Below, piece by piece: positions 3,770-5,795 of a stretch of DNA of 39,290 nucleotides. A program made the translations under genes and the position numbers. The notes beneath the pieces were generated by a model that was not told the DNA's origin, searched no databases, and was given only the letters and a program-made list of their open reading frames with translations. Origin of the DNA: Gallionella sp. (GTDB lineage Bacteria > Pseudomonadota > Gammaproteobacteria > Burkholderiales > Gallionellaceae); contig JARCRR010000039.1 of assembly GCA_029850565.1 (NCBI GenBank), positions 1 through 39,290 of the forward strand. Reading direction: 5' to 3'. Position 1 is the stretch's first letter, and each line of letters opens with the position of its first letter.

Positions 3770-4099
3770 CTACCAACTATCGTAATCGGTCAAGTTAATC
3801 GACTCACCGGTGATGGACTCCGTCACTGTGCACGCCATCCCTATTCCCGTGGGGGTGAAGGTGAATGAATAGCCGACACCTATCGCGCCGTAATAGGGCA
3901 GCTTCACTGGGTAATGGAAGCCCCAACCGTTTTGCTGGGCATGCTCAAATTGAATGGCGGCAGCACGTTGCTCAACACCGATAGCCCACTCATCAAATTG
4001 CTTGATTTGCTCTTCCGTTAGCTCGAACTTCTCACCGAACTGCATAGGCTCACGCAGGTCAAACTTAAATGGCGGAGTGTTGTTTTCTGATTGACTCAT
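3770..4099 (-). CDS. Hypothetical protein (109 aa)
   Basis: ATG at 4099 overlaps the upstream stop (ATGA), suggesting translational coupling; C-terminal YYGAIG..YSFTFTPTGIG...LTDYDSW. Confidence 0.7.
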   Translation of the reverse strand: MSQSENNTPPFKFDLREPMQFGEKFELTEEQIKQFDEWAIGVEQRAAAIQFEHAQQNGWGFHYPVKLPYYGAIGVGYSFTFTPTGIGMACTVTESITGESINLTDYDSW

Positions 4100-5142
4100 A
4101 TCTCGACTACCCCCATAGATAACACTTGGATAAAGCAAAAATCTTCTTCGCGCATATATTCTGGGGTGCTCGTCACAATATGAAAGCTCGCGTCACTAGC
4201 CCAAAATGGCTTGTCGTTGCGCAATATCTTTGATGGCTCCTCTAGTGCAAGCAATACACCCCGTTTCATTTGCTCGACCTTCTCTACATTGCCGATGATG
4301 TGAAAGATCGCTCCCGAGGCGCGTTGCCCATCACATTCTATCCAGCGACTCGATTCACCAAGCGCATCTTCAATCGCTGCTTTCGGATGTTCAAACTCTG
4401 AATAATTACAGCCAACCATGCACACACCTGATGTGGCTATTGCATCACCGATCTGGACGTAACAGTCTTTTCGGGTTGCCATCTTGGAAAACAAGCAAAG
4501 CGCCATAGTCGATTGGTAAAACATCCACGACCAATCTTGCTCCTCGCCACTCCTACTCCAAAAACCTTCATCTGGAATAGAGCAATGACAAATCGCCGCC
4601 ATTCTTTCAATGACAGCTTGGTTTGCCGCGCTGGATGCTGGGTTGCAATGCCAAACTTTTGCATCTTCTACAGCCTCACGGATATATGGCGTACCAATAA
4701 CAGCGACTGACATCACACCAGCCTCATTGGCGATATTGGCGATTCCTTCCCCCGCAACAAAGGCCATCGGGTTATCCAAAGTAACAACGAGCAATAAGCA
4801 ATCGCAACCATGGATGAATCGATTGATTTCCGGTTCTGCCTCTTTGAATGCTTTGATAGTTTCATCCTGATTATTTAACGCCTGCTCACAGGCTTTCCAA
4901 CCATCCATAACCGGGCCAGACCTGCTGCGACCGTCTTCCTCCGCATACATTTCAAGCGCCCCATCTGCATTCAGATAGAGAATGTCCTTGTTATTCCAAT
5001 TCACAATTGGCGAGTCTTGTTCATGTGCGCATTTCAAACCCGCCAAATAGTGCCCACTGGCTTCGCCCACTAGAATCATTCGCACTCTAGGCAGAGTCGA
5101 TTGATTAAAGCTTCCATGTTTCGAAATATCATTGAGTGGCAT
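4096..5142 (-). CDS. Divergent FtsZ/tubulin-fold protein lacking the GTP-binding signature (pseudo-GTPase)
   Basis: EAEPEINRFIHGCDCLLLVVTLDNPMAFVAGEGIANIANEAGVMSVAVIGTPY aligns by eye with FtsZ EDRDALRAALEGADMVFIAAGMGGGTGTGAAPVVAEVAKDLGILTVAVVTKPF. The C-terminal GVCMVG...KAAIEDAL...ASGAIFHIIG...IQVLSMGV resembles the FtsZ C-domain. Start is 5142, or 5193 which has a GGGGGAG RBS. Confidence 0.65.
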   Translation of the reverse strand: MPLNDISKHGSFNQSTLPRVRMILVGEASGHYLAGLKCAHEQDSPIVNWNNKDILYLNADGALEMYAEEDGRSRSGPVMDGWKACEQALNNQDETIKAFKEAEPEINRFIHGCDCLLLVVTLDNPMAFVAGEGIANIANEAGVMSVAVIGTPYIREAVEDAKVWHCNPASSAANQAVIERMAAICHCSIPDEGFWSRSGEEQDWSWMFYQSTMALCLFSKMATRKDCYVQIGDAIATSGVCMVGCNYSEFEHPKAAIEDALGESSRWIECDGQRASGAIFHIIGNVEKVEQMKRGVLLALEEPSKILRNDKPFWASDASFHIVTSTPEYMREEDFCFIQVLSMGVVEI

Positions 5143-5144
5143 GG

Positions 5145-5795
5145 TCACGATTTCCACTGTGAAATGAAGGGGCAGTCGTTTTGTTCTTGCCATAGTTGCT
5201 CCCCCATTTCTAATCGCGAGATTAGGCGAGCACTTGCCTTGCCGATCCAATCATTCAGCGCAATGTATGCATCTTCCATGGTTGCTTGCCCCCCAAGAAC
5301 TTCGATTAGCTTGTCATTGCAAAACTCGATGCATGATGCCTCCGAGGACAGATTGCCAACTGCCACTCTCGCCTGAAGAGGACGTTCGCCTTCAAACTCA
5401 AATGGCATCACTGCAAGCACGATCACTTTTGCACCAGCATTCAGCGCGAGTTGCGCAATAACCGGGGTGGCTCCACCGCCCGTTCCTCCTCCCATCCCTG
5501 CGCAAATAATGACAACGTCTGCATCGCCAACAGCCAACTTGATACTGCCTCGATCTGCTTCGGCCGCAAGCCTTCCAAGCTCCGCATCACCCTCGCACCC
5601 GTTACCGCTCACGATGGCTCGACCAATACGCAGCTTGGTTTGTAAATCGTTATTGATTCTATCGAGGGCATCATCAGTATTGATGCAGACGTAATCGAAA
5701 TCGTGCTCATCTTGCCTGTACAAATATTGAGCGATGTTTGATCCGCAGCGGCCAACACCGACAAATGAGACCTTCATGGATTTGCTATTTTTCAT
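5145..5795 (-). CDS. Truncated FtsZ-like protein, N-terminal GTPase domain only
   Basis: VGVGRCGSN, INTD, AGMGGGTGGGATPVIA (tubulin signature), MPFEFEG and NDKL. Ends after helix H7 with no NxDFAD T7 loop, C-domain or C-terminal core peptide. Confidence 0.88.
   Translation of the reverse strand: MKNSKSMKVSFVGVGRCGSNIAQYLYRQDEHDFDYVCINTDDALDRINNDLQTKLRIGRAIVSGNGCEGDAELGRLAAEADRGSIKLAVGDADVVIICAGMGGGTGGGATPVIAQLALNAGAKVIVLAVMPFEFEGERPLQARVAVGNLSSEASCIEFCNDKLIEVLGGQATMEDAYIALNDWIGKASARLISRLEMGEQLWQEQNDCPFISQWKS

What the first reader, a model, noticed from the sequence alone, without database searches (positions are those of the whole stretch)
4096..5795. Tandem non-canonical FtsZ pair with complementary defects
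Seen: the upstream protein (216 aa) keeps the GTP-binding motifs (GVGxxG, NTD, GGGTGGG, PFxFEG) but stops after H7, with no T7 loop or C-domain. The downstream protein aligns by eye along both FtsZ domains, but TLDNPMAF replaces the Gly-rich signature and KDCYVQ lies where NVDFAD is expected. Neither has the FtsA/ZipA-binding C-terminal peptide. Established: FtsZ hydrolyses GTP at the interface between one subunit's nucleotide pocket and the next subunit's T7 loop. Inference: each protein presents at most one functional face, so they may form a non-hydrolysing heterodimer or cap opposite ends of host FtsZ or phage tubulin (PhuZ) filaments.
Basis: partly seen in the sequence, partly recalled or inferred. 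Interest (0 to 1): 0.85.

Follow-up and report, generated by a model that had tools for sequence, protein, structure and literature searches.

The report
Crippled FtsZ copies in defence-type island
An inserted 8-kb island carries two extra, crippled copies of the cell-division protein FtsZ (one only its GTP-binding half, one a predicted full FtsZ fold with its nucleotide and catalytic motifs replaced) that belong to two small, apparently undescribed families and likely act separately rather than as the proposed pair.

Summary
Both ORFs are real. ORF1 (5145-5795) is the FtsZ GTP-binding domain plus H7. Three relatives at 46-92% identity end at about the same place, so this is no recent nonsense mutation. 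ORF2 (4096-5142) has the two-domain FtsZ fold (AlphaFold model, Z 22.6). It belongs to a family of about 30 sequences in which an invariant Asp motif replaces GGGTGTG and T7 is lost, so it lacks the motifs of both faces and is not complementary to ORF1. The pairing is seen only in close strains: of 317 family genomes, the one other ORF1 relative and the one other ORF2 relative lie in different genomes. The genes are cargo of an 8.3-kb WYL/nuclease/nucleotidase island with a target-site duplication; the host keeps an intact dcw ftsZ. Related islands carry other FtsZ derivatives, including fusions to Mrr nuclease and nucleotidase. New here: 15 of 31 ORF2 relatives and one ORF1 relative start with a twin-arginine-like leader, which both window copies lack. 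Best guess: ORF1 caps or sequesters host FtsZ under stress, and ORF2 is a leaderless, relaxed copy of a probably exported pseudo-GTPase. Earlier scan notes reported FtsZ halves in islands of other genomes.

The parts
5145..5795 (-). ORF1, 216 aa, FtsZ N-terminal GTP-binding domain plus H7 only
   Evidence: relatives P0148, P0012, P0249 end at about the same place
5472..5492 (-). GGGTGGG tubulin signature (T4) of ORF1, shared by all four family members aligned
   Evidence: sequence
4096..5142 (-). ORF2, 348 aa from the ATG 2 nt after the ORF1 stop (365 aa if started at 5193); two-domain FtsZ-fold pseudo-GTPase without the leader peptide of many relatives
4759..4782 (-). TLDNPMAF replacing the Gly-rich T4 loop; the Asp is invariant in 29 of 29 family members
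4453..4470 (-). KDCYVQ at the T7/H8 position; N207 and D212 equivalents lost, not conserved in the family
5785..6252 (-). 155-aa ORF overlapping the ORF1 start; a 46% relative also lies upstream of the ORF1 relative in G003, and a 45% paralog lies on G000:C67 without FtsZ
3770..4138 (-). 122-aa unknown ORF (longest frame) downstream of ORF2
2800..3705 (-). PF06189 5'-nucleotidase, PADLOC candidate defence gene PDC-S08
2076..2900 (-). DUF1643 protein, last island gene
6306..7112 (-). 268-aa unknown cargo ORF; replaced by 584 other bases in the X2/X3 strain
   Evidence: table 5
7097..7639 (-). 180-aa unknown cargo ORF
7675..8631 (-). WYL-WCX transcription regulator (BrxR/CapW-like architecture)
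8638..10140 (-). DUF2779 protein with weak Cas4/PD-(D/E)XK nuclease similarity, first island gene
1977..2019 (.). left copy of a 43-nt direct repeat = 5' end of the MFS gene (island boundary)
10299..10341 (.). right copy of the 43-nt repeat (95% identical), likely target-site duplication

Best explanation
The two genes are members of two separate small families of FtsZ derivatives that sit side by side as cargo of an inserted WYL-type island and likely work independently: ORF1 would bind GTP and likely caps or sequesters the host's own FtsZ under stress, while ORF2 is predicted to be a nucleotide-free FtsZ-fold binding protein whose relatives are likely exported. Shown: domain content, motif loss, fold of the model, family membership, island boundaries, intact host ftsZ, non-conserved pairing. 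Inferred: ORF1 offers only the GTP-bearing face, so it would dock on the T7/C-domain face of a host subunit and block further addition there, slowing division when the WYL regulator releases the operon. The host T7 loop would complete the active site, so the cap would be transient. Inferred: ORF2 lost its twin-arginine-like leader when island rearrangement placed ORF1 directly upstream, and this copy is now under weaker constraint. Odds: about 0.75 for independent cargo, about 0.4 for the whole statement including the capping role.
For: ORF1 relatives at 92%, 46% and 50% alignment identity all stop shortly after H7 and form one clade with support 0.986. ORF2 family: Asp of LD[NSC] 29/29, G210 27/28, W212 26/27, W223 26/27, W331 24/25, and 0 of 29 keep GG[GN]T, so the fold is maintained without the nucleotide motif. 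In 317 family genomes the ORF2 family occurs in G000 and G197 only and the ORF1 family in G000 and G003 only; G197 has no ORF1 relative beside it and G003 no ORF2 relative. Island: 43-nt duplication, 49% GC against 56%, and MFS directly beside grpE in 24 of 29 genus loci. Host ftsZ is intact in ddl-ftsQ-ftsA-ftsZ-lpxC. RRxF[LIVM] leader in 15 of 31 ORF2-family sequences, in P0249, and in 4 of 19 FtsZ-like ORFs against 0 of 253 other ORFs of the same loci; host has tatC. Precedent: truncated FtsZ1 blocks division in Agrobacterium (PMC13732431, abstract and Introduction); FtsZ interface fragments inhibit growth (PMC9245647, passages); 48% of BrxR-family WYL genes lie with defence systems (PMC9122601, abstract).
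Against: No binding, expression or phenotype data exist. The window ORF1 has Arg in T1 where its 92% relative has Gly, and a remodelled T3 loop (GNGCE for GLGAG), which may weaken GTP binding or FtsZ contact. One ORF1 relative (P0249) has the export-like leader, which does not fit a cytoplasmic cap for the whole family. Leader scores are below the Pfam cut-off (6 of 29 members at E<=0.1, best 18.5 bits against 22.7; one member reaches the TIGR01409 cut-off), and at least nine relatives other than the window's close strains have no leader. The pair is kept in at least two other strains, and G003 holds an ORF1 relative 3.6 kb from a different pocket-dead FtsZ with an intact NLDFSD T7 motif, which leaves room for a loose two-part logic. 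Neighbours of most ORF2 relatives could not be read.
Confidence: 0.4

Rival explanations
1. By-products of a domain-shuffling island: host cell-cycle genes are repeatedly copied into these islands, truncated, fused and left to drift, and the window copies have little or no current function.
For: Eight accessory copies nest inside the family's own FtsZ clade on long branches. Some are split or frameshifted. The islands also hold DnaA-DnaB, DnaB-FtsK-gamma, FtsK-gamma-DnaA and FtsK-gamma-FtsZ chimeras. PF06189 lies in frames of 429-810 aa in several genomes, so fusions to it are common. ORF2 against the X2 strain gives dN/dS about 0.52 over 160 codons, 13 synonymous of 40 changes, P=0.054. The window copy has Cys where close relatives keep Trp, and a short altered segment with indels. 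Each family is in only 2 of 317 genomes.
Against: Both frames are intact in at least three strains. The ORF2 family keeps specific residues at 15-30% overall identity. The ORF1 endpoint and a C-terminal Cys-Pro are shared with a 46% relative.
Confidence: 0.25
2. Immune decoy or sensor: the FtsZ copies bind phage or competitor proteins that attack FtsZ, either soaking them up or, where fused to an enzyme, triggering it.
For: FtsZ N-domain fused to an Mrr nuclease (G246) and to the PDC-S08 nucleotidase (G118). An FtsZ derivative lies within about one gene of, or fused to, PF06189 in G000, G003, G118 and G299; 7 of 13 genomes with a divergent extra FtsZ have PF06189 against 27 of the other 304 (kin are not independent). 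Neighbours include GmrSD, Sir2, HAD_SAK, RtcB, KptA. Kaur et al. list inactive cell-division domains, rarely FtsZ/tubulin, among conflict-system effector domains (PMC7159879, passages).
Against: No PADLOC model matches either protein. PF06189 occurs without an FtsZ derivative in most genomes that have it. A decoy should stay close to the host protein, yet ORF1 is 38% identical to host FtsZ and ORF2 about 18%.
Confidence: 0.22
3. One reading: ORF1 and ORF2 form a dedicated non-hydrolysing heterodimer or cap opposite filament ends.
For: The genes are adjacent and apparently translationally coupled (stop, 2 nt, ATG). Both lack leaders here and so would share the cytoplasm. The junction recurs in other strains (P0148/P0004 on contigs of equal length; X2/X3 contig bridging 3885-5274).
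Against: The pairing is absent from the two more distant genomes that carry either family. ORF2 lacks both the nucleotide pocket and T7, and H6 is replaced by a Trp-rich hairpin in the model. The 3' end of ORF1 is shared with a relative that has no ORF2 behind it, which points to a join made by rearrangement.
Confidence: 0.1

Closest known systems
Canonical FtsZ (TIGR00065; P. aeruginosa 2vaw; host copy G000:C74)
   Same: Fold and closest structural and sequence match for both proteins; ORF1 keeps the GTP-binding motifs.
   Different: ORF1 has no T7, C-domain, linker or C-terminal peptide; ORF2 has neither T4 signature nor T7; both lie in an island, not in dcw.
Truncated FtsZ paralogs of Hyphomicrobiales (Agrobacterium FtsZ1/FtsZ3; PMC13732431)
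   Same: Extra ftsZ copies outside dcw that lack the C-terminal anchor; FtsZ1 inhibits division when expressed.
   Different: Those keep the whole GTPase core with the binding and hydrolysis residues and are maintained across families; these are half-domain or motif-dead, rare and island-borne.
FtsZl1 and FtsZl2 (Makarova and Koonin 2010, PMC2875224)
   Same: Divergent FtsZ-superfamily proteins beside a normal FtsZ; FtsZl1 also lacks recognisable distal elements.
   Different: Both keep GGGTG(S/T)G and have long C-terminal regions; FtsZl1 lies in vWA operons and matches Tubulin_2. None of this holds for ORF2; ORF1 has no C-terminal region and no Tubulin_2 hit.
Filament-capping inhibitors MciZ and SulA (MciZ as cited in PMC9245647; SulA mechanism recalled)
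   Same: What ORF1 may work like: binding the T7/C-domain face of FtsZ.
   Different: They are unrelated in sequence and fold; ORF1 would use the native FtsZ interface.
WYL-regulated defence islands (BrxR, CapW; PMC9122601, PMC11662680)
   Same: WYL-WCX regulator heading variable cargo with nuclease-like and candidate defence genes.
   Different: No validated defence system was detected in this island, only candidate PDC-S08; FtsZ cargo was not found described in my searches.

Membership tests
Canonical FtsZ | TIGR00065 score above 295 bits | tested here: not met
   ORF1 136 bits, ORF2 no hit
Canonical FtsZ | Two-domain FtsZ fold | tested here: met
   ORF2 only: Z 22.6, rmsd 3.5, 273 aligned; ORF1 has the N-domain only and was not modelled
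Canonical FtsZ | GGGTG(T/S)G nucleotide signature | tested here: inconclusive
   ORF1 has the variant GGGTGGG; ORF2 family 0 of 29
Canonical FtsZ | T7 loop NxDxxD | tested here: not met
   absent in ORF1; RKDCYV in ORF2
Canonical FtsZ | C-terminal FtsA/ZipA peptide and dcw location | tested here: not met
   both end without it; host copy in dcw ends DIPSFLRKQAD
Canonical FtsZ | GTP-dependent polymerisation | not testable with these tools
   needs biochemistry
Hyphomicrobiales truncated paralogs (FtsZ1 type) | Complete GTPase core with binding and hydrolysis residues conserved | tested here: not met
   PMC13732431 section 14 part 1
FtsZl1 (Tubulin_2) | Tubulin_2 match, long coiled-coil C-terminus, vWA operon | tested here: not met
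   no Tubulin_2 hit for either protein or for 29 ORF2 relatives; no vWA gene in the island
FtsZl2 | All of T1, T4, T6, T7 kept plus a ~300-aa unique C-terminal region | tested here: not met
   PMC2875224 section 4
PhuZ / TubZ / CetZ | Closer to these than to FtsZ; phage, plasmid or archaeal setting | tested here: inconclusive
   lower Z (13.8-18.5) than FtsZ; weak PHROG PhuZ hit for ORF1, E 1.8e-4; no tree with these families was built
Tat substrates | N-terminal RRxF[LIVM] leader in the window proteins | tested here: not met
   neither window copy has it
Tat substrates | Leader in relatives scoring as a Tat signal | tested here: inconclusive
   motif in 15 of 31; Pfam scores under the cut-off; P0131 equals the TIGR01409 cut-off
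Tat substrates | tatC-dependent export | not testable with these tools
   host has tatC; export needs a reporter assay
WYL-regulated defence island | WYL-WCX regulator in an inserted variable locus | tested here: met
WYL-regulated defence island | Validated defence system among the cargo | tested here: inconclusive
   only candidate PDC-S08 (E 1e-135) and weak Cas4-like hits

The most novel reading that the evidence does not exclude
Defence-type islands of these bacteria have repeatedly turned the cell-division GTPase FtsZ into non-polymerising tools. One is a family of twin-arginine-exported FtsZ-fold pseudo-GTPases, that is, tubulin-fold proteins working outside the cytoplasm with a new Trp-lined binding surface. 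Another is stand-alone or enzyme-fused GTP-binding halves that act as caps, baits or sensors for attackers of the division machinery.
Probability: 0.25. Interest if true: 0.85.

Novelty: new variant of a known kind. Interest (0 to 1): 0.58.

Why it matters
Known extra FtsZ copies keep a working GTPase core. A conserved family that keeps the whole FtsZ fold, replaces the nucleotide loop by an invariant Asp motif, drops T7 and often carries an export-type leader is invisible to Pfam and was not found in my literature searches. A periplasmic tubulin-fold protein would be a surprise, and it is easy to test. A natural N-domain-only FtsZ is also a ready-made probe of filament polarity and capping.

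Tried and rejected
Complex prediction of ORF1 with ORF2 (residues 30-365) plus GTP gave no verdict: score 0.00 twice, mark 0.32, controls not folded; not counted for or against. ORF1 with host FtsZ was not run (one job only). Locus scans with the ORF2 alignment found no confirmed relative in metagenome, genome or viral contigs. A degenerate motif scan of metagenomes gave 3 chance matches. The ORF1 alignment found nothing in viral contigs, and among 39 genome loci only L071 was a family member by identity and coverage; the other 38 were not inspected. No ORF2 match in plasmids; the 20 listed ORF1 plasmid hits of 55 were canonical ftsZ or unannotated. In 400 other genomes of the order, all A6 matches were about 50 bits in FtsZ-sized frames, so no family member was found in those searched. 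BLAST of ORF1 against ORF2 shows no similarity. The tree groups ORF1 and ORF2 families together, but on long branches; I do not read this as sisterhood, and no clade test was run. No RNA holder was listed. The promoter scan was uninformative (2 sites, 9.2 expected). Recent nonsense mutation and assembly error were rejected. The G003 pocket-dead FtsZ is not an ORF2-family member (16 bits against A6, 79 against FtsZ). Rows dropped from the accessory-FtsZ count: G171 (one gene in two frames) and G250, G258, G260 (second hits at contig ends, not inspected). Atlas search with homologue P0008 gave tubulin-family leads only (0.90 or lower) and FtsZ by structure. The 268-aa cargo ORF is not convincingly related to its positional counterpart in G003.
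Full report
Observation. The two minus-strand ORFs exist as described. ORF1 (5145-5795, 216 aa) matches Pfam Tubulin (E 3.5e-28) and TIGR00065 below its cut-off. Its best PDB hits are enterobacterial FtsZ over residues 9-187. It keeps T1 (GVGRCG), NTD, T4 (GGGTGGG), PFEFEGER and the H7 guanine contacts, and ends about 20 residues after H7. ORF2 has no profile hit in four libraries. Its weak PDB hits are nearly all FtsZ (27 of 29, best E 0.005), and its family profile aligns to FtsZ at 97.9% over 301 columns. 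A first model from 10 sequences (pLDDT 65) gave Z 17.9 to FtsZ; a second from 29 sequences (pLDDT 80, pTM 0.83) gave Z 22.6, rmsd 3.5 A, 273 residues, ahead of CetZ, tubulins, TubZ and PhuZ. The likely start is the ATG at 5142, two bases after the ORF1 stop.

Is the truncation old? Yes. P0148 (217 aa, 92%) ends identically, P0012 (215 aa, 46% in the alignment) ends at the same place with a shared Cys-Pro, and P0249 (243 aa, 50%, three cluster members) ends just after H7. They form one clade (support 0.986; FastTree on the N-domain columns). Both protein searches covered only 118-380 aa, so longer fused members of this clade were not looked for.

The ORF2 family. Searches gave about 30 relatives; one search counted 24 clusters at E<=1e-10, one of which (P0157, a 2529-aa repeat protein) I left out as spurious. 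In the 29-row alignment the Asp that replaces the first Gly of GGGTGTG is invariant, G210 and three Trp are nearly so, none keeps GG[GN]T, and the T7 position is not conserved. In the model H7 and H8 are joined by about two residues and a beta-hairpin replaces H6. FtsZ hydrolysis needs T7 residues from the neighbouring subunit (bioRxiv 10.1101/093708, passages). ORF2 therefore lacks the motifs of both faces, so the defects are not complementary.

Leaders. 15 of 31 ORF2-family sequences start with M-x(0-6)-RRxF[LIVM], as does the ORF1 relative P0249. Among 19 fetched loci, 4 of 19 FtsZ-like ORFs and 0 of 253 other ORFs have the motif; the host genome background is 4 of 1822 long frames. HMM support is weak: 6 of 29 members hit TAT_signal, all under the cut-off, and one equals the TIGR01409 cut-off. 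At least nine other relatives have no leader. The host has tatC. Both window proteins lack the leader. Because the ORF1 tail is shared with a relative that has no ORF2 behind it, I infer that ORF2 lost its leader when ORF1 was placed upstream.

Is the pair conserved? Only among close strains. P0148 and P0004 lie on contigs of the same length (4947 bp), and one contig in runs X2 and X3 bridges the junction (these two runs look like one data set, and X1 may be the source sample). Across 317 family genomes the ORF2 family appears in G000 and G197, the ORF1 family in G000 and G003. G197 has no ORF1 relative nearby and G003 has no ORF2 relative; both are 84-85% complete, so absence from the whole genome is not proven. 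G003 does carry, 3.6 kb away on the other strand, a different FtsZ derivative with a dead pocket and an intact NLDFSD T7 motif, which keeps a loose two-part logic open. From the 40 listed of the X2 differences, covering 4433-4911, ORF2 has dN/dS about 0.52 (P=0.054 for an excess of synonymous change): weak constraint at most.

Setting. The host is a betaproteobacterium, likely Gallionellaceae (inferred from a relative named Sideroxydans sp.), with an intact dcw ftsZ. The genes lie in an 8.3-kb insertion bounded by a 43-nt duplication of the MFS gene start, at 49% GC against 56%. MFS adjoins grpE in 24 of 29 genus loci. The order is DUF2779 nuclease-like, WYL-WCX, three unknowns, ORF1, ORF2, unknown, PF06189 nucleotidase (PADLOC candidate PDC-S08), DUF1643; no integrase was detected by Pfam. 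The DUF2779-WYL head recurs on two other host contigs with different cargo. 16 of 317 family genomes had a second ORF1-profile match. After dropping G171, G250, G258 and G260 and adding G197, 13 carry divergent extra FtsZ. These include a triple tandem (G200), N-domain fusions to the nucleotidase (G118) and to Mrr (G246), an FtsK-gamma fusion (G026) and leader-bearing copies (G299, G032, G120), amid DnaA, DnaB and FtsK-gamma chimeras, Sir2, HAD_SAK, RtcB, KptA and GmrSD. Seven of these 13 have PF06189, against 27 of the other 304; kin are not independent and both may simply mark island carriers.

Mechanism. I commit to independent cargo (about 0.75). For ORF1 the most likely role is a stress-released cap or sequestrant of host FtsZ: it presents the GTP face, would dock on the T7 face of a host subunit, and offers no face for further growth. 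This is inference from architecture plus precedent: FtsZ1 blocks division in Agrobacterium (PMC13732431; abstract, Introduction and part 1 of section 14 read), FtsZ interface fragments inhibit growth (PMC9245647, passages), and WYL repressors lie with defence systems (PMC9122601 abstract; PMC11662680 search listing). ORF2 is best read as a leaderless, relaxed copy of a nucleotide-free binding protein whose relatives are probably exported; its ligand is unknown. Joint confidence 0.4. Rivals: drifting by-products of a shuffling island (0.25), immune decoy or sensor (0.22; PMC7159879 passages), dedicated heterodimer (0.1).

Comparison and novelty. Neither protein meets the definition of FtsZ, of the Hyphomicrobiales paralogs, or of FtsZl1/FtsZl2 (PMC2875224, abstract and sections 4 and 6; PMC9871819 passages). 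Nine full-text searches surfaced no paper on Tat-leader FtsZ, FtsZ pseudo-GTPases of this kind, or FtsZ cargo in WYL islands. The library lacks most subscription papers, and I read no supplements, where lists of such proteins may exist. Earlier unchecked notes of this scan report FtsZ halves in islands of other genomes, so the N-half theme recurs; none matched this sequence or the leader theme. E. coli residue numbers, the SulA mechanism and the names of phage inhibitors are recalled, not from calls.

Verdict. This is a new variant of a known kind, interest 0.58. The most novel open reading, exported FtsZ-fold pseudo-GTPases and FtsZ halves as island tools, has probability about 0.25 and would merit 0.85.

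Noticed in passing
L150:8431-9966 (G118:C2): FtsZ N-domain fused in frame to the PF06189 nucleotidase, at the end of a DUF2779-WYL-DnaQ-like island.
   Followed up: partly
L154:8928-10103 (G246:C32): FtsZ N-domain plus H7 fused to an Mrr-type restriction endonuclease domain, flanked by HU/IHF-like ORFs; candidate sensor-nuclease.
   Followed up: partly
L149:1469-11125 (G200:C46): Three tandem divergent ftsZ copies next to DnaA-DnaB and DnaB-FtsK-gamma chimeras, HAD_SAK, Sir2 and HDAC genes and a WYL-like fragment.
   Followed up: partly
L153:543-1757; L158:1938-3053: FtsK gamma domain fused to FtsZ in one island and to a DnaA ATPase domain in another.
   Followed up: no
L156:9115-10266; L151:9624-10451; L155:9253-9903; P0179, P0213, P0217: Further FtsZ paralogs with twin-arginine-like leaders, some near full length and one keeping a C-terminal peptide.
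   Followed up: partly
L071:3515-4330 (G003:C2): 271-aa FtsZ derivative with no GTP pocket but an intact NLDFSD T7 motif, 3.6 kb from an N-domain-only FtsZ: the truly complementary combination.
   Followed up: partly
window 8638-10140 and 7675-8631; G000:C200, C86, C87: DUF2779 has four copies and the DUF2779-WYL pair three in this genome (about 80% identical pairs), each with different cargo: a possible integrase-less mobile island family.
   Followed up: partly
window 2800-3705: PF06189 nucleotidase is in 34 of 317 family genomes and often in longer frames (429-810 aa), suggesting varied N-terminal fusions.
   Followed up: no
window 5785-6252: Unknown 155-aa protein (relative has weak HEAT/LRV hits) upstream of the N-domain-only FtsZ in both G000 and G003; a candidate partner of ORF1.
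   Followed up: partly
window 10342-11369: aqpZ lies outside the repeat but inside the MFS-grpE interval; G109 and G060 have other single genes there, so the site is an insertion hotspot.
   Followed up: partly
window 28487-29827: LRR plus protein-kinase protein between murJ and a FecR-domain gene.
   Followed up: no
L003:10509-11168: ORF with a weak ADP-ribosyltransferase-like Pfam hit (E 0.12) divergent from the ORF2 relative in G197.
   Followed up: no
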